Shown: positions 732-25,457 of the stretch, piece by piece
Numbering within the stretch: the first letter of the stretch is position 1
Layout of the letters: each line of letters begins with the position of its first letter
IMG/VR virus record: IMGVR_UViG_3300017991_000084
Coordinates: 1 to 26,829 of that record
Strand: one strand, 5' to 3'
DNA: 26,829 nucleotides
From: a virus
Lineage: Duplodnaviria > Heunggongvirae > Uroviricota > Caudoviricetes
Translations under genes and position numbers: made by a program
Notes under the pieces: model-generated
Told to the model about the DNA's origin: nothing
Seen by the model: only the letters and a program-made list of their open reading frames with translations
The model's database searches: none

Positions 732-2567
732 TTAAGAGGTAAATCCGAATCCTTCGAAGATCTCACCGACCTCCTCATCGACACGTCGTTGTTCTGAATC
801 AACCTCAGGATCGACCTTCCGTACAGCAATTTCCGTGATCCGATCAGAGTGAATTGCACTCCGTCTCTTGGCCTTGGTAAGCCGCTCAATCAGCTCATCA
901 ACGTCCAGAAGTGTGCTGCATTCTCCGAGTAGTGCTCGGACATTCTCGTGAACCTTCAGTCTCGACTCTCGCAAACGCTGGTCGAAATACTCACCCAAAA
1001 CAGCCATCCTTCCTTCAAAGAATGACTCATTGCATCTGTCTTCTATGTCAGCCTTGTGATCCTCATCCAAACTATTGACACGTTCCTCAATAGCTTGAGA
1101 CTTGGTCTTGGCTTCCTCCAGCTGGGCCGCAGCCTCACTGGCATCTTTCGCTTTGGTTTCCAGAACTGACCGCAATCCAGCCACTTCCGTTCGCAAGGTC
1201 TCATTACGCTTCAAGAGCCGCGAACGAACTCTCTTGTGACTTTCATTGGCTTCTTTGACATGCTGCAAAGTGTGCAACGCTTCAAGCGCCTTATCGCGTT
1301 CAGCACGAACGCTGGCCTCCCGGATCTTCAACTCTGTCACCTCACGTACAGATTCCGCGACAGACGAAGCGGAGGCTTCACTATCATCTACGCTCTCCGT
1401 TGCACTTTGTTCGCTCTTTTCTTCAGAATCTGTCACATTTTCTGAAGTTTTCTTGGATTCCTCCATCTCCTCTTCATCCTCATCCTCGACCCCAATCTCG
1501 GAATCCACGTCCTCGGGCTCACCCATAGGCTCCTCATCCATGTCCCCAGGTGCCTCTGGCGCTCCCAGATCATCCTCAGGTTCCACAACAGGCTCACCCT
1601 CCAGCTCGCCGCCAAGCTCACCACCCAGCTCGCCACCCAGCTCGCCCTCAGGTTCAACGGCAGGCACACCCATACCTGTGTTCCCAGGCTCCTCAGGCAT
1701 TGCAGGAAGCTCAGGCTCCATAGCCACAGGAACCACGCTCACGATACCCTCAGGATCGATCCCAACAATCGTGTCCCCATGAACTTCCACATCCGACGTT
1801 GCTCCATCTTTTTCTACAGAAAGAGAAACGTTCGTCTCATCAATACTCTTCACCGTCGCCGTATGATCGCCGTAGTGCAACGTGTCGCCTTCCTTCAGAC
1901 GCTCATCCTTGAACAAATCTGCCAAAGTGATATCTGATTCCTCAACACTCACCGACTCCAAAATGGCCTCGGCCAACTTCTTGTCACCTTCCTTCAACTT
2001 GTCCATCTCACGCTCCACTGTTTCCTTAACATTGCGACGAACGTTCATCGGTGCCACATTGAACGTACTTGGATCAGCCGTGAAGTCAGTTGTCTTGTAC
2101 TGATATGCTTCCGGCACGACACGATGAAACTTCCCACGATCATCCTCAGCCTCTTCCAGGTCACCCTCAGCGCGCGTACTCATGCCCACCTGCGAATCCG
2201 CACGCAACAGACAATCCACGATACGGCCCATTGGAGTGTCCAGAACATCCACCGTCTGGTAGACCTTTCCGTCATTCTCATCAATCCACATCTCATGGAT
2301 GATATGACTGGTCTCCCTCAGATCTGATTGAGTTTCTGCTGGGTGCTCTGCGTGACCATAGAGATTCCGGTTCGACAACTTCTCCTGAAGTTCCTCATTC
2401 CCCAGAACACGCTCCCAAACGGCCTTCTCATAGATCCTTCGGTTCGCATTCATCTCATCGATATTGCAGATGGGATATGTAACACGACACAACACTGTCT
2501 CAGGAAGCTTGCTACGATCCGACTCTACGATCTGCACTTTCCCATGTACTCTCTCAGTCAGCAACAT
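732..2567 (-). CDS. Prohead protease (T4 gp21-like) with C-terminal acidic/coiled-coil scaffold-like region
   Basis: N-terminal ~175 aa has NANRRIY, LYGHAEHP, SHII, LDTPMGRI, VGMSTRAEG and TDFTADPST, typical of gp21-family proteases. RBS GGAGGAG. Immediately upstream of the capsid gene. Confidence 0.9.
   Translation of the reverse strand: MLLTERVHGKVQIVESDRSKLPETVLCRVTYPICNIDEMNANRRIYEKAVWERVLGNEELQEKLSNRNLYGHAEHPAETQSDLRETSHIIHEMWIDENDGKVYQTVDVLDTPMGRIVDCLLRADSQVGMSTRAEGDLEEAEDDRGKFHRVVPEAYQYKTTDFTADPSTFNVAPMNVRRNVKETVEREMDKLKEGDKKLAEAILESVSVEESDITLADLFKDERLKEGDTLHYGDHTATVKSIDETNVSLSVEKDGATSDVEVHGDTIVGIDPEGIVSVVPVAMEPELPAMPEEPGNTGMGVPAVEPEGELGGELGGELGGELEGEPVVEPEDDLGAPEAPGDMDEEPMGEPEDVDSEIGVEDEDEEEMEESKKTSENVTDSEEKSEQSATESVDDSEASASSVAESVREVTELKIREASVRAERDKALEALHTLQHVKEANESHKRVRSRLLKRNETLRTEVAGLRSVLETKAKDASEAAAQLEEAKTKSQAIEERVNSLDEDHKADIEDRCNESFFEGRMAVLGEYFDQRLRESRLKVHENVRALLGECSTLLDVDELIERLTKAKRRSAIHSDRITEIAVRKVDPEVDSEQRRVDEEVGEIFEGFGFTS
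1599..1646. repeat. 4 x 12-bp imperfect tandem repeat encoding (G-E-L-G/E)4
   Basis: ctccagctcgcc / gccaagctcacc / acccagctcgcc / acccagctcgcc inside the protease linker. Confidence 0.8.
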
Positions 2568-13967: not shown

Positions 13968-14040
13968 CCTTCTTCCTCCTCTTCAAAACCTCTTCTCTTT
14001 CCAGTTCAAGATACCAGCGTATTAGAGCTGGTGAGCAAAC

Positions 14041-14071
14041 CGGAGCTGATCCTGATGAAGGATCAGCTCCG
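14041..14071. terminator. Perfect 13-bp hairpin (terminator or processing site)
   Basis: CGGAGCTGATCCT-gatga-AGGATCAGCTCCG, 10 nt after the stop at 14081. The U-tract is weak (GTTTG). Confidence 0.55.
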
Positions 14072-14080
14072 CGATTTCGA

Positions 14081-14230
14081 TCAGTCGATCTCTGTCGGAT
14101 CATCGCCCTGCCTCAATGCCTTGCGTACCTTCGCACGCTCCGATTTGTGTCCCTTCTTACTCTTGGGCCTTGATCCACCCCACTCACCACCTTGATCACG
14201 GCGATTGCCGCGACGGTATGTCCTACCCAT
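14081..14230 (-). CDS. Small basic protein (49 aa)
   Basis: Hand-read MGRTYRRGNRRDQGGEWGGSRPKSKKGHKSERAKVRKALRQGDDPTEID. It overlaps the upstream stop. Confidence 0.6.
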   Translation of the reverse strand: MGRTYRRGNRRDQGGEWGGSRPKSKKGHKSERAKVRKALRQGDDPTEID

Positions 14231-17538: not shown

Positions 17539-17645
17539 CCTATGTATCCTTCCCGAACAAGCTCGTCCCATTTCCGTTCGACAGAAAAATGGCGATACTC
17601 GATCAAGCAGTGATCGAACCCAGCCGGATACTCAGCTGGCACCAA

Positions 17646-17716: not shown

Positions 17717-17805
17717 GTGTATTCACTTTTCAAATCAGAGTAACCTAATCAGCCGTCCCCAGTCCACCACTGGTCACCAACCTTTCGGTTACTCCCTAGG
17801 TGGAA

Positions 17806-20078: not shown

Positions 20079-20311
20079 TAGAACTTCACTGGATCAGTAC
20101 CTTCCCGATTCTTCCATCGGAGCACACAACCCATGCTACCCACGGTAGGAACACAGTGAATCACACCCTTGTCATCAAGGACTCGATGTGTGCTCCCACC
20201 CTTACGCAAGAACAACTTCTTCGGATTGTCAATCCGATAGATTCTACCGCCCCAGTCGTACTCACGCCACAGCTCATCTGTCAAGTCACCCACAAACATG
20301 TCCTCACTCAT
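20078..20311 (-). CDS. Conserved small phage protein (77 aa)
   Basis: Start MSEDMF (RBS AAGGAG). WREYDW...YRIDNPKKL...STHRVLD..GVIHCVP...LRW is a pattern recalled from large-phage hypotheticals. Confidence 0.65.
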   Translation of the reverse strand: MSEDMFVGDLTDELWREYDWGGRIYRIDNPKKLFLRKGGSTHRVLDDKGVIHCVPTVGSMGCVLRWKNREGTDPVKF

Positions 20312-22858: not shown

Positions 22859-23386
22859 TCAACGCACAGGTTTCGGACGAGGAATGCCATTCCGCTCACC
22901 GATGGCTTCCACCGCCTCTTTGGCTTCCTTCAGGCCCGCATGTGTGGCCTCACGATACAACTTGATTGCCGGAATCTTGCGCCCACTTCTCAGCTCCGCA
23001 AGAATCCGCTCCTCCAGATCCGAAGTCAGATTGAGGAAGAAATTCCCCAGTCCCGCTCTCTTTACCGCACTCACAAATTCCTTGGGATTCGTCGCAATCA
23101 GATGCATGAGCAACAAAGAGATTGCCGACTGACTGACCTGACCTGATGTAATCGCATGGTAGACACCGAGCGACTGGTTCTGGGCAATTCGGTTCTCCTG
23201 GATAATGCCCATATCCTCAGCCCTTCGCTCCAGTGAAATCAGACGCCTATCCAAATCAACCAGATTACAGCGTGCTGTCTCCAGAGCACTCTGCGCCGAC
23301 GCTCGCTCTGCATTCGCCACGTGCAGCTCCTTCTCCAACTCCACAATCCGATCTTTCAACTGCTGTTTCGTAGGCTGATTAGCCAT
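22859..23386 (-). CDS. Coiled-coil protein with C-terminal ribosomal protein bL12 (L7/L12) CTD-like domain
   Basis: GRKIPAIKLYREATHAGLKEAKEAVEAI matches the bL12 CTD pattern (KI.vIK.vR..tGlGLKEAK..VE). Start MANQPT (RBS GAGGAG). Confidence 0.8.
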   Translation of the reverse strand: MANQPTKQQLKDRIVELEKELHVANAERASAQSALETARCNLVDLDRRLISLERRAEDMGIIQENRIAQNQSLGVYHAITSGQVSQSAISLLLMHLIATNPKEFVSAVKRAGLGNFFLNLTSDLEERILAELRSGRKIPAIKLYREATHAGLKEAKEAVEAIGERNGIPRPKPVR

Positions 23387-23888: not shown

Positions 23889-24100
23889 CAGTCCGTCTCC
23901 CGATTCTGCCCATCTGCCAGAGGATCGTCATCGTACCACTCGTCCTCCGGATAGTCCTCTGCCACTTGTCGGCACAGCTCAATGAAACGCGCCCGCTCAC
24001 GGTCCTCAGCTTCACTCATCTTATCATCATCCAGATGACTGATGCAATCCTCCATGTCCTGAATCGTGTTGTGAAATCGATAGTAGACTACACTACCCAT
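23888..24100 (-). CDS. Conserved small phage protein (YxRFxNT motif)
   Basis: MGSVVYYRFHNTIQDMEDC resembles the recalled M.NMSYCRF.NTL.DL.DC phage family; RBS GAGGAG. Confidence 0.65.
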   Translation of the reverse strand: MGSVVYYRFHNTIQDMEDCISHLDDDKMSEAEDRERARFIELCRQVAEDYPEDEWYDDDPLADGQNRETD

Positions 24101-24362
24101 TGGGAATCTCCTCATCAGTGAACATCGGACGATAGAATGCCTCCGGGCAATTCTCATCGATCCACCTCACCACCGTGTGCCGCACACCCATCCAGATCGC
24201 CACAATCATCTGAGGAGGATATGCCGTTAGCGGCTCCTGCCACACCTTGTCCTCGATCTCCGGATGAGTCTCCTTGTAGATCTTCATCACGGCATCCACG
24301 TTCTTGTCAGGCCACAAACCATGCTCGGCCAACAACGTTCGAATCTTCTGCTCAACGGTCAT
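24093..24362 (-). CDS. Hypothetical protein (89 aa)
   Basis: Start MTVEQKIR with RBS GGAG. Confidence 0.6.
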   Translation of the reverse strand: MTVEQKIRTLLAEHGLWPDKNVDAVMKIYKETHPEIEDKVWQEPLTAYPPQMIVAIWMGVRHTVVRWIDENCPEAFYRPMFTDEEIPNG

Positions 24363-24730
24363 ACGCTCATTCTCCAAAAAGGTTCGTTGGCACATGCAAG
24401 GAAACCGCAAACACCTAATAACCCACCCACCTCACCTATAAAGGCAAGATGACGGCGAGACCAGCTTTTAGGTCCCGCTTTGGCCCGCGACAGCCCGACC
24501 GATTTAGGAGCTACCTCGCGTAGTAGAACTCTCCCTTTGTCGGCCCTGAGCCTGCGACTTCCCTGCACATACCAAAGAACATTCCGCTGATGGCAACTAG
24601 GTCCCTTCACCCACGCCCGTACTTTCGAGCTTCCCACCGCAACGCGACTTCGAGTCCGTCCACGGTAACCAAGCAGTGACCCCACACTGCCGAAGCTCGC
24701 CACCAACTACCCACGCCGCAACCATTATCG
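24363..24730 (-). ncRNA. Candidate large structured RNA in the largest intergenic gap
   Basis: Several nested helices found by eye; no credible coupled ORF. Confidence 0.35.
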
Positions 24731-25216
24731 TTACGCGACTGCCAACGCCCTCGCCTGCCTCGGCCTCTTAAAGAAACCGAACTTCGGATTGTCGTCAGCC
24801 TGCACCACATTCGCCACAAACGTCACATGAGCGCCCACCGGAAGCTCACCCAAGGATTTGGGGACCGAACCCCACACCTTGAAGCCACGGTCATCCTGCA
24901 CAGTCATCTTCAGGACCATGCCGAACTGAGTATCGCGCCACTTGACCGACAGGACCTCACCAGTGATCTGAATACCATTACCCACGACCACATCAGGAGC
25001 ACTCGCCTCTTCCAGCCTGCTCTGCTCAATTCTCTGCCGATACCAGAAGTTCTTGATGGCCGCTACAATCACCGCAGCGCCCTGCTTCTCGCTCAGACTA
25101 CCGAACCGATTCAGCTTGACCTTGATGTCATACAGGAACTCATTGTCATTGACCAGCTCACTGTTCAGAATCGACATCACGACAGGGTTGTCCGCTCTGT
25201 AGTTTCGTTTCGCCAT
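24731..25216 (-). CDS. Phage protein with C-terminal OB-fold-like domain
   Basis: ITGEVLSVKWRDTQFG...KMTVQDDRGFKVWGSVP...VTFVANV...FGFFKRP; RBS GAGGAG. Confidence 0.7.
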   Translation of the reverse strand: MAKRNYRADNPVVMSILNSELVNDNEFLYDIKVKLNRFGSLSEKQGAAVIVAAIKNFWYRQRIEQSRLEEASAPDVVVGNGIQITGEVLSVKWRDTQFGMVLKMTVQDDRGFKVWGSVPKSLGELPVGAHVTFVANVVQADDNPKFGFFKRPRQARALAVA

Positions 25217-25252
25217 GGTTCAGCTCCTCAAAGGGTTTCGGCTTACACTTAA

Positions 25253-25280
25253 AGTATACGCCATATGCCTTGAGAAGCAA
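25253..25280 (-). promoter_or_regulatory. Sigma70-like promoter
   Basis: TTGCTT-N16-TATACT in the intergenic gap upstream of the RBS. Confidence 0.65.
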
Positions 25281-25286
25281 ATCATT

Positions 25287-25457
25287 TTATGGAAAAAGTG
25301 CGTCCTTCATGACATCGATCTCTTCCTGCAACGCCGTCAGGTCCTGGTAGATCTGCTGCTTGTCTACGCTCATGTCCGCAAACAGAGCACGAACCGCCAG
25401 CATAGCCTCAGCAAACAGCCTCCTCTCCGCTCTCCCATGTGCCATTGGATGGTCCAT
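25287..25457 (-). CDS. Hypothetical helical protein (56 aa)
   Basis: Hand-read MDHPMAHGRAERRLFAEAMLAVRALF...; TGATG overlap. Confidence 0.55.
   Translation of the reverse strand: MDHPMAHGRAERRLFAEAMLAVRALFADMSVDKQQIYQDLTALQEEIDVMKDALFP

What the first reader, a model, noticed from the sequence alone, without database searches (positions are those of the whole stretch)
24363..24730. ~370-nt gap holding a multi-helix structure: candidate novel large phage ncRNA
Seen: the largest gap in a window where genes otherwise abut. The minus strand is G-rich with nested helices. CGAGCTTC/GAAGCTCG (24699-92 and 24633-26) encloses GCAGTG/CACTGC and ACCG/CGGT stems. GGCCGA/TCGGTC (24545-40 and 24502-24497) encloses GGAG..CTAC/GTAG-CTCC. 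An alternative long-range helix GTGGCGAG/CTCGCCGT (24703-24696 and 24459-52) competes with the first. GGCGTGGGT and GGGACCTA each occur twice. I found no RNase P, tmRNA, group I/II or cobalamin consensus. It lies downstream of the 25253 promoter. Established: large phages carry big orphan ncRNAs (e.g. GOLLD, ROOL classes). Inference: a new ncRNA or cis-switch.
Basis: partly seen in the sequence, partly recalled or inferred. Interest (0 to 1): 0.7.

Follow-up and report, generated by a model that had tools for sequence, protein, structure and literature searches.

The report
New folded RNA cassette in phage
The "empty" 370 bases between two genes of this uncultivated T4-like phage encode a conserved, intricately folded RNA that matches no catalogued RNA family and is not a protein gene; its function is unknown, and only three variants from one kind of habitat are available.

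Summary
A closing helix of about 31 bp encloses a five-way junction with four hairpins. Its folding energy is -95.1 kcal/mol, z = -6.3, against a most extreme control-window z of -3.8. Two diverged relatives (76-84% identity) keep 95% of pair cells. Fourteen pairs changed on both sides, against 6.0 +/- 1.8 in shuffles and 0-3 in slid controls.

The 115-aa frame is broken by indels and stops in relatives. It lacks codon periodicity and has no protein homologue. Rfam 15 gives nothing at E <= 10.

The element behaves as a cassette. It sits before three different genes in three phages, and homology ends at the foot of the closing helix. In one relative only the 3' domain is present, behind a promoter and a tRNA-like gene. 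The 5' part (24581-24728) is conserved and varies in a way the fold tolerates, but has no compensatory support.

Best reading: a stable non-coding RNA cut from the early transcript at its long helix, probably by host RNase III. Function is unknown.

This scan noted the same gap in another record, and stem-closed RNA cassettes in other phages.

The parts
24382..24580 (-). 3' domain, the core structured RNA (covariance model R1): closing helix P1, five-way junction, hairpins P2-P5
   Evidence: MFE -95.1 kcal/mol, z = -6.3. RNAalifold gives 69 pairs, 13 of them compensatory. 95.4% of pair cells are paired and 14 pairs changed on both sides, against 6.0 +/- 1.8 in shuffles. R1 scores 204-221 bits on the sense strand and 16-29 bits on the reverse strand.
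24548..24580 (-). P1 5' strand (outer 8 bp, one unpaired base, then 22-23 bp)
   Evidence: 31 pairs, 7 with compensatory changes. The inner 10 bp are only 30-50% identical between phages yet stay paired.
24382..24414 (-). P1 3' strand. Homology with relatives stops at its foot.
   Evidence: BLAST breakpoints lie at 24383/24384.
24497..24545 (-). P2: GGCCGA/UCGGUC stem carrying two stacked inner stems; the apical loop ACGCGA (24516-24521) is invariant
Evidence: 16 pairs, all cells paired, 3 compensatory.
24482..24495 (-). P3: 4-bp hairpin with invariant loop GUCGCG (24486-24491). UCGCG is complementary to CGCGA in the P2 loop, a candidate 5-bp kissing contact.
   Evidence: Both loops are identical in all three variants and the 5 candidate pairs are invariant (helix 5). 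With no variation there is no covariation support, so this is inference.
24455..24478 (-). P4: 8-bp hairpin GCGGGACC / GGUCUCGC with an 8-nt loop
   Evidence: All cells paired, 2 compensatory pairs (G-C to A-U, C-G to U-A).
24428..24451 (-). P5: variable hairpin, followed by a variable junction strand
   Evidence: 56% identity between variants. A hairpin is kept, with register shifts: 78.6% of cells paired, 2 compensatory pairs.
24581..24728 (-). 5' part of the cassette: predicted three-way junction (CGAGCUUC/GAAGCUCG enclosing two hairpins) plus one further hairpin, bracketed by GUUGGUGGC/GCCAUCAGC. Present in the window and in L186, absent in L082.
   Evidence: About 90% identical to L186. 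Of 46 predicted pairs, 0 are broken, 3 changed on one side and 0 are compensatory. z = -1.4. Structured status is plausible but not shown.
24359..24706 (-). 115-aa open frame (TTG start, ATGA overlap with the next gene): not a gene
   Evidence: Frame broken in L186 and L082. No codon periodicity: G at codon position 2 is 0.40, against 0.13-0.21 in neighbouring genes. No hit among 5.8 billion proteins or in IMG/VR. No Pfam match.
25253..25281 (-). Conserved promoter-like motif TTGCTT-N17-TATACT upstream of the 161-aa gene, the probable source of the transcript that reads through the cassette
   Evidence: Read from the sequence. Copies of the motif stand at L082 3278-3318 (directly upstream of the tRNA-like gene and 3' domain) and at L082 348-408. 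A look-alike is read in L186 downstream of gene A. It falls below the threshold of the consensus scan. Activity is inferred.
24731..25216 (-). Upstream gene, 161 aa, unknown function (PHROG 18425/4750/4265)
24093..24362 (-). Downstream gene A, 89 aa, unknown function. In L082 it follows the 163-aa gene directly; in L186 it lies upstream of the cassette.

Best explanation
The gap encodes a strand-specific, evolutionarily conserved structured RNA cassette of no known family. It is not a protein gene. Its core is a 199-nt domain (24382-24580, minus strand) in which a closing helix of about 31 bp clamps a five-way junction. The junction bears four hairpins, and two invariant loops (ACGCGA and GUCGCG) can pair with each other. 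A conserved 5' part of about 148 nt precedes the core in this phage. The cassette has no detected terminator. In the window it is most likely transcribed as part of the early polycistronic RNA that starts at the promoter-like motif near 25253. Most likely the long closing helix is a double-strand-specific cleavage site, probably for host RNase III. Cleavage there would release a compact stable RNA and separate the flanking mRNAs. The RNA would then act in trans through its invariant junction and loops, for example by binding a protein. Shown here: the structure, its conservation, its strand, its non-coding nature and its cassette behaviour. Inferred: co-transcription, cleavage at the helix, stability and trans action. 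The molecular target is unknown.
For: Thermodynamics: 3' domain -95.1 kcal/mol, z = -6.3, against a minimum of -3.8 in 115 same-strand control windows. The whole gap gives z = -3.57 on the minus strand and -1.43 on the plus strand.

Covariation with only three distinct sequences: 69 alifold pairs, 13 compensatory. 95.4% of cells are paired. Fourteen pairs changed on both sides, against 6.0 +/- 1.8 in shuffles (0 of 500 reach it) and 0-3 in slid controls.

Mosaic constraint: the core is 85-88% identical, above the 63-78% seen at third codon positions of flanking genes. The inner part of P1 is 30-50% identical yet stays paired.

Strand: many G-U pairs, and R1 scores 204-221 bits on the sense strand against 16-29 bits on the antisense strand.

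Not coding.

Cassette behaviour: the gene order is 161aa | element | A | B in the window; A | promoter + 2 ORFs | element | B in L186; and 163aa | A | promoter + tRNA-like gene + 3' domain | L12-like gene in L082. Homology breaks at the foot of P1.

Stable-RNA context: the 3' domain lies behind a tRNA-like gene in L082.

Established knowledge, not tested here: RNase III cuts duplexes of about 20 bp or more, and it excises rRNAs and processes phage T7 early RNA at such stems.

Analogues: T4 RNAC/RNAD are stable RNAs whose roles are unknown (PMC3014915), and T5 carries annotated 'stable RNA with unknown functions' that fold as a closing stem plus hairpins.
Against: Only three distinct sequences are available, all from one related set of metagenome samples, so the statistics rest on few independent events. 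The kissing-loop contact is invariant and therefore unsupported by covariation. The outer 8 bp of P1 are imperfect in L082 (2 of 8 mismatched) and do not form in its MFE fold. No partner protein gene travels with the cassette. No Ro/TROVE, reverse transcriptase, TnpB or RNase III gene was found in the 90.8-kb record, which is 58% complete. In every genome the cassette ends 6-14 nt before a ribosome-binding site, which also fits a cis role.
Confidence: 0.6

Rival explanations
1. It is a cis-acting leader or processing element. On this reading the folded domain exists to control the gene immediately downstream, or the stability of the flanking mRNAs. It might work as a ligand- or protein-sensing switch, a translational enhancer, or simply an RNase III cut site that leaves protective stems on the neighbouring mRNAs. 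No trans-acting RNA product would be involved.
For: In all three phages the cassette ends 6-14 nt upstream of a GGAG-type ribosome-binding site. In L082 it lies in the leader of the L12-like gene, behind a promoter. The P1 5' strand GUUCUUU could in principle pair with GGAGAAU (read from the sequence). A five-way junction with a loop-loop contact recalls the lysine riboswitch architecture (recalled from established knowledge, not tested).
Against: The downstream gene is different in each phage (A, B and the L12-like gene), so no gene-specific logic is conserved. Predicted accessibility of the ribosome-binding site is not consistently reduced by the element. A P1 of 22-31 bp is far too stable to act as a switching helix. 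Known RNase III processing sites are simple hairpins and do not need a 135-nt interior conserved at 85-88%. No riboswitch family matches at E <= 10.
Confidence: 0.22
2. It is a small protein gene: the 115-aa frame, or one of the 42-80-aa frames, encodes a basic Arg/Gly-rich protein translationally coupled to the next gene.
For: The 115-aa frame spans almost the whole gap and ends in an ATGA overlap with the next start codon. A gene caller called a 78-aa gene over the element in the L186 contig.
Against: Relative to the window, L186 has indels of -1, +1, +1, -1 and -2 nt and a stop where the window has Trp, and L082 has stops in every frame. The frame shows no codon periodicity, and its composition is R/G/S/V-rich and D/E/I-poor, unlike neighbouring genes. 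There is no homologue among 5.8 billion proteins and no Pfam hit. Substitutions instead preserve base pairs.
Confidence: 0.02
3. It is a DNA-level element: a miniature inverted-repeat transposable element, a recombination site or a replication origin, whose 31-bp terminal inverted repeat explains both the long 'helix' and the change of position between phages.
For: The element occupies different positions relative to gene A in three related phages, and it is bounded by an inverted repeat.
Against: About a quarter of the P1 pairs are G-U, which are mismatches in DNA, and changes interconvert G-U, A-U and G-C so that RNA pairing on one strand is kept. The antisense strand scores 16-29 bits against more than 200 bits for the sense strand. 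Internal hairpins covary too. The element is single-copy in the 90.8-kb record, and no target-site duplication abuts the repeat. No transposase family was found. Position changes are equally well explained by cassette shuffling between repeated promoter motifs, which is known in T4-type phages (established knowledge, not tested here).
Confidence: 0.04
4. It is chance structure in a degenerating remnant (a dead gene or dead tRNA array) with no function.
For: The family is tiny, with three alleles from one kind of habitat. The 5' part has no compensatory support.
Against: The core is more conserved than synonymous sites of neighbouring genes. There are 14 double changes that keep pairing. z = -6.3. 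Each allele is recovered unchanged from 2-4 separate samples.
Confidence: 0.05

Closest known systems
Phage T5 stable RNAs RNAIII, RNAIV and RNA2H (GenBank AY543070, annotated 'stable RNA with unknown functions')
   Same: They are phage-encoded and embedded among early or tRNA-region genes without their own terminator. They are 100-170 nt and are predicted to fold as a closing stem around three hairpins. Their function is unknown.
   Different: There is no sequence or profile similarity: R1 finds nothing at E <= 10. Their closing stems are 8-12 bp rather than 22-31 bp. They lie inside the tRNA array, whereas this cassette lies among small protein genes, 4-7 kb from the window's tRNAs.
Phage T4 RNAC (species 1) and RNAD (species 2)
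   Same: They are small stable RNAs of a T4-type phage with unknown biological role (PMC3014915), made from a polycistronic precursor together with tRNAs. The L082 variant of this element also sits behind a tRNA-like gene.
   Different: RNAC is tRNA-like with a canonical T-arm, and this RNA is not. R1 finds nothing in the T4 tRNA region. The sizes and folds differ.
RNase III processing stalks (leader-trailer helices around 16S/23S rRNA; phage T7 early-region sites)
   Same: A long duplex formed by sequences that flank a structured RNA, placed between cistrons of one transcript. The duplex length of 22-31 bp is in the range that RNase III cuts (established knowledge).
   Different: Cleavage was not tested here. 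T7 sites are simple hairpins with no conserved multi-hairpin interior.
Lysine riboswitch (RF00168)
   Same: The gross architecture is similar: about 180-200 nt, five helices around one junction, and a loop-loop contact between two neighbouring hairpins (recalled knowledge; the contact here is only inferred).
   Different: There is no Rfam match at E <= 10. P1 is far longer than a switching helix, the downstream genes are unrelated to lysine metabolism and differ between phages, and none of its conserved core sequence is present.
Large ornate RNAs of phages and prophages (GOLLD RF01998, ROOL RF03087)
   Same: They are orphan structured RNAs associated with phages, and their function is unknown.
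   Different: They are 2-4 times larger and unrelated in sequence and structure.

Membership tests
Any Rfam 15 family (including GOLLD, ROOL, HEARO, raiA, OLE, tmRNA, RNase P, 6S, Y RNA/YrlA, riboswitches, ribozymes, group I/II introns) | Covariance-model score at or near the family's gathering threshold | tested here: not met
   Only tRNAs match in the window at gathering score. There are no matches at E <= 10 in 24250-24850 on either strand. Nothing overlaps the homologous element in L082 or L186.
tRNA / tmRNA / tRNA-like | Cloverleaf with acceptor, D and T arms, or a tRNA-like domain plus tag frame | tested here: not met
   ARAGORN, with and without the intron option and the tmRNA search, finds nothing in 24301-24800. 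The Rfam tRNA model has no hit there.
Conserved structured non-coding RNA (generic class) | Base pairs maintained by compensatory substitutions in homologues, beyond controls | tested here: met
   Fourteen pairs changed on both sides, against 6.0 +/- 1.8 in shuffles and 0-3 in slid controls; 95.4% of cells are paired. The caveat is that only 3 distinct sequences exist.
Conserved structured non-coding RNA (generic class) | No conserved reading frame | tested here: met
Conserved structured non-coding RNA (generic class) | A discrete transcript is made | not testable with these tools
RNase III-excised stable RNA | Flanking sequences form a duplex of about 20 bp or more | tested here: met
   P1 has 22-23 contiguous pairs plus an outer 8 bp, with 95.7% of cells paired in three variants.
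RNase III-excised stable RNA | Staggered cleavage in the duplex by RNase III | not testable with these tools
   This needs an enzyme assay or end-mapping RNA-seq.
T4 RNAC/RNAD and T5 RNAIII/RNAIV/RNA2H | Sequence or profile homology | tested here: not met
   R1 finds nothing at E <= 10 in the T4 and T5 tRNA regions.
Stem-closed phage RNA cassette family sharing one conserved stalk with swappable cargo (earlier notes of this scan) | The same closing-stem sequence recurs around different interiors | tested here: not met
   This stalk is single-copy in the record. Twenty IMG/VR places hold its 3' arm, none has the 5' arm within 450 nt, and most lie in one conserved coding gene. The consensus stalk of the earlier family was not available to me, so direct comparison was not possible.
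Riboswitch / cis-regulatory leader | Conserved association with a functional class of downstream gene, and an expression platform that sequesters the RBS or forms a terminator | tested here: not met
   The downstream genes differ. There is no terminator. No consistent RBS sequestration is predicted.
Protein-coding gene | Frame conserved in relatives, with codon periodicity | tested here: not met

The most novel reading that the evidence does not exclude
The 199-nt domain is the founding member of a new class of phage RNA with a defined tertiary fold: a five-way junction locked by a CGCGA/UCGCG loop-loop contact. Its CGCG core is palindromic and could instead join two copies. On this reading the RNA does a specific job during early infection, for example sequestering a host RNA-binding or defence protein or sensing a metabolite. 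Phages would swap it between early operons as a self-contained module that is excised from the transcript.
Probability: 0.2. Interest if true: 0.75.

Novelty: new variant of a known kind. Interest (0 to 1): 0.5.

Why it matters
T4-type and T5-type phages have long been known to make small stable RNAs whose roles are still unknown (T4 RNAC/RNAD; T5 RNAIII, RNAIV and others). This cassette adds a well-delimited example outside a tRNA array. It has unusually clear evidence of structure for so few sequences, a very long closing helix and a possible tertiary contact. It shows that such RNAs travel as modules between early operons. It gives a compact construct of about 200 nt for testing whether long closing helices in phage transcripts are excision signals and what the excised RNAs bind. 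The narrow distribution and the lack of any functional clue limit its present weight.

Tried and rejected
- Rfam at gathering and at E <= 10: nothing.
- INPHARED phages by blastn: no match.
- IMG/VR with the three local proteins: only distant relatives of the 161-aa gene, none carrying the element by nhmmer, blastn or R1.
- An exact 18-mer from the core, in IMG/VR: nothing.
- The same 18-mer in metagenome contigs: 119 or more hits, almost all chance matches in high-GC bacteria with unrelated flanks.
- A gapped loop pattern in IMG/VR and in 185,579 genomes: 1 + 16 chance hits. The only R1 hit (L214, 28 bits) is an unrelated perfect inverted repeat without the conserved loops.
- Stalk-arm scans: no other cargo with this stalk (two searches were syntax errors).
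- The 115-aa frame as a protein query: no hits.
- Cluster and contig look-ups of neighbouring proteins: these returned the same three alleles again, in further samples.
- Partner-gene searches in the record for TROVE/Ro, reverse transcriptase, TnpB and RNase III: none.
- Ideas considered and dropped: CsrB-like GGA sponge (the GGA motifs are mostly in stems); 6S-like rod; MITE with a 9-bp target duplication (the GGCGTGGGT repeats do not abut the inverted repeat); rRNA stalk mimic for the nearby L12-like protein (no rRNA or L10-leader match at E <= 10); MotA-type or late promoter inside the 5' part (no fit by eye).

Full report
**Context.** The window is the first 26.8 kb of a 90.8-kb IMG/VR virus record, estimated 58% complete. 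Earlier notes of this scan describe the record as an uncultivated T4-like phage. Genes around the finding all lie on the minus strand, are small, and have no known function. Six tRNA genes lie 4-7 kb away.

**The observation.** The gap runs from the stop of a 161-aa gene (24731-25216) to the ATG of an 89-aa gene, called gene A here (24362).
- The minus strand of the whole gap folds at -152.1 kcal/mol, z = -3.57. The plus strand gives only z = -1.43.
The whole window has a GC skew of -0.1 to -0.4.
- Splitting the gap shows where the signal lies. The 3' 199 nt (24382-24580) fold at -95.1 kcal/mol with z = -6.3. In comparison, 115 control windows of the same length and strand average -0.56 (sd 1.2, minimum -3.8). 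The 5' 150 nt reach only z = -1.4.

**Relatives.** No phage in GenBank/INPHARED matches, and IMG/VR holds only distant relatives of the flanking genes. The large protein collection gave closer relatives of the 161-aa gene and of gene A. Their contigs and one metagenome scan yielded three distinct alleles of the element.
- The window type also occurs in L084 at 99.8% identity.
- The L186/L206 type is 84% identical over the whole 350 nt.
- The L082/L083/L190 type is 76% identical, over the 3' 200 nt only.
- Each allele recurs unchanged in 2-4 samples of one related set of metagenomes.

**It is RNA structure, not a protein.** RNAalifold on the three alleles predicts 69 pairs, 13 of them with compensatory changes.
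- Counting on a fixed structure gives 95.4% of cells paired. Fourteen pairs changed on both sides, against 6.0 +/- 1.8 in column shuffles (0 of 500 reach the observed value) and 0-3 when the 3' partners are slid by 1-3 columns.
- The inner ten pairs of the closing helix are only 30-50% identical between phages, yet they stay paired.
- The junction, P2, P3 and P4 are 85-88% identical. That is above the 63-78% identity at third codon positions of the flanking genes.
- About a quarter of the P1 pairs are G-U. The covariance model R1 scores 204-221 bits on the sense strand and 16-29 bits on the antisense strand. The selection therefore acts on an RNA read in the direction of the genes.
- The 115-aa frame ends in a tempting ATGA overlap with gene A. 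In L186 it is disrupted by indels of -1, +1, +1, -1 and -2 nt and by a stop, and in L082 by stops in every frame.
- That frame has no codon periodicity: G at position 2 is 0.40, against 0.13-0.21 in real genes. Its composition is Arg/Gly/Ser/Val-rich. It has no homologue among 5.8 billion proteins.

**Anatomy of the 3' domain.**
- P1 pairs 24548-24580 with 24382-24414. It has an outer 8 bp, one unpaired base, and then 22-23 bp.
It carries two stacked stems, and its apical loop is ACGCGA.
- P3 (24482-24495) is a 4-bp hairpin with the loop GUCGCG.
- P4 (24455-24478) is an 8-bp hairpin with two compensatory pairs.
- P5 (24428-24451) is variable, and a variable strand follows it back to P1.
- The P2 and P3 loops are invariant and complementary over 5 nt (CGCGA/UCGCG). 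This suggests a kissing contact or, because CGCG is palindromic, dimerisation. With no variation this remains inference (helix 5).
It is therefore not favoured.

**The 5' part (24581-24728).** It is about 90% identical to L186. In an alifold structure of 46 pairs no pair is broken. Three pairs change on one side only (G-U to A-U and the like), and the other nine variable columns fall in loops. This is compatible with structure, but the structure was derived from the same two sequences and there is no compensatory change. L082 lacks this part. In its place L082 has a copy of the phage's TTGC(A/T)T-N16/17-TATACT promoter motif and then a tRNA-like gene with a 64-68-nt insertion in its anticodon loop (Rfam tRNA 49 bits). 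A spacer of about 90 nt follows.

**Cassette behaviour.** The gene orders are:
- window: 161aa | element | A | B | C | D | L12-like;
- L082: 163aa | A | promoter + tRNA-like + 3' domain | L12-like;
- L186: A | promoter + two ORFs | element | B | C.

Homology stops at the foot of P1 (24383/24384), and the next gene brings its own ribosome-binding site. The element is single-copy in the record. The unit of inheritance therefore coincides with the unit of RNA structure, and it is not tied to any one neighbour.

**Mechanism.** The scan finds no intrinsic terminator in or after the element, and no promoter in the gap on the coding strand. In the window it should therefore be read through from the promoter-like motif at 25253-25281.

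A 22-31-bp duplex formed by the two ends of a structured RNA inside a polycistronic transcript is the arrangement by which RNase III releases 16S and 23S rRNA and cuts phage T7 early RNA (established knowledge). I therefore propose that P1 is cut, which would release a compact stable RNA and separate the flanking messages. The highly conserved interior argues that the released RNA, and not merely the cut, is the selected product.

A purely cis role is the main rival. The cassette always ends 6-14 nt before a ribosome-binding site. However, the regulated gene would differ in each phage, the site is not consistently sequestered in predicted ensembles, and P1 is too stable to switch. No candidate partner gene (Ro/TROVE, reverse transcriptase, TnpB, RNase III) is in the record.

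**Comparison with known RNAs.** Nothing in Rfam 15 matches at E <= 10.
- The nearest known things are functional analogues, not relatives. T4 RNAC and RNAD have biological roles that are "unknown" (PMC3014915; folds).
- The T5 RNAs annotated "stable RNA with unknown functions" are predicted to fold as a closing stem around three hairpins. R1 finds nothing in either region.
- Earlier notes of this scan report stem-closed RNA cassettes in the tRNA arrays of other phages, some sharing one stalk around many cargoes. That lead sent me to the T5 RNAs. I had reached the RNase III reading before the look-up.
- I tested whether this stalk recurs around other interiors and found no case. This element is therefore of the same kind, but it is not shown to belong to that family. 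The same gap was also noted, without follow-up, in another record of this phage.

**Limits.**
- Only three distinct sequences exist, from one related set of samples.
- No transcript data could be obtained.
- The tertiary contact, the processing step and the trans action are inferences.

**Verdict.** This is a real, conserved, strand-specific structured RNA cassette that is new to the catalogues and is best viewed as a new variant of the poorly understood stable RNAs of large lytic phages. I put the probability that it is a functional structured RNA at about 0.9. I put the probability that it is excised at P1 and acts as a free ncRNA at about 0.5-0.6.

Noticed in passing
L082:3343-3479 (+), relative contig JGI 3300017963 Ga0180437_10015084: A tRNA-like gene with a 64-68-nt insertion of two hairpins in the anticodon loop. 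The Rfam tRNA model scores 49 bits. ARAGORN with the intron option calls tRNA-Thr(GGT) with an 'intron' inside the anticodon. The insertion is too short for a group I intron. The gene sits behind a phage promoter motif and directly upstream of the 3' domain studied here.
   Followed up: partly
window 25247-25287 (-); L082 348-408 and 3278-3318; L186 about 1430-1465 (-): A repeated promoter-like motif TTGC(A/T)T-N16/17-TATACT followed by TTTA(A/G)GT. It marks the borders of shuffled gene cassettes in the three related phages and may be the recombination substrate for the rearrangements.
   Followed up: partly
window 22859-23386 (-): A 175-aa protein with a coiled-coil N-terminus and a weak ribosomal bL12 C-terminal domain match (Pfam PF00542, 26.5 bits). 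In relative L082 its gene lies immediately downstream of the RNA domain.
   Followed up: no
window 20079-20220 (-) and 14001-14200 (-): Other stretches of the minus strand with strong folding z-scores (-2.8 to -3.8). The first lies just upstream of tRNA-Gly and may be another structured leader or spacer.
   Followed up: no
window 17539-17644 and 17718-17805 (-): The 88-106-nt spacers inside the tRNA array fold into stem-closed hairpins (z -1.6 to -1.9). These are weak and were not compared with relatives.
   Followed up: no
L214:1341-1503 (-), uncultured Verrucomicrobiae MAG CAVVAN010000004.1: A perfect inverted repeat of about 28 bp enclosing about 100 nt. It scored 28 bits with R1 purely through the long helix, and it is unrelated in its interior.
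   Followed up: partly
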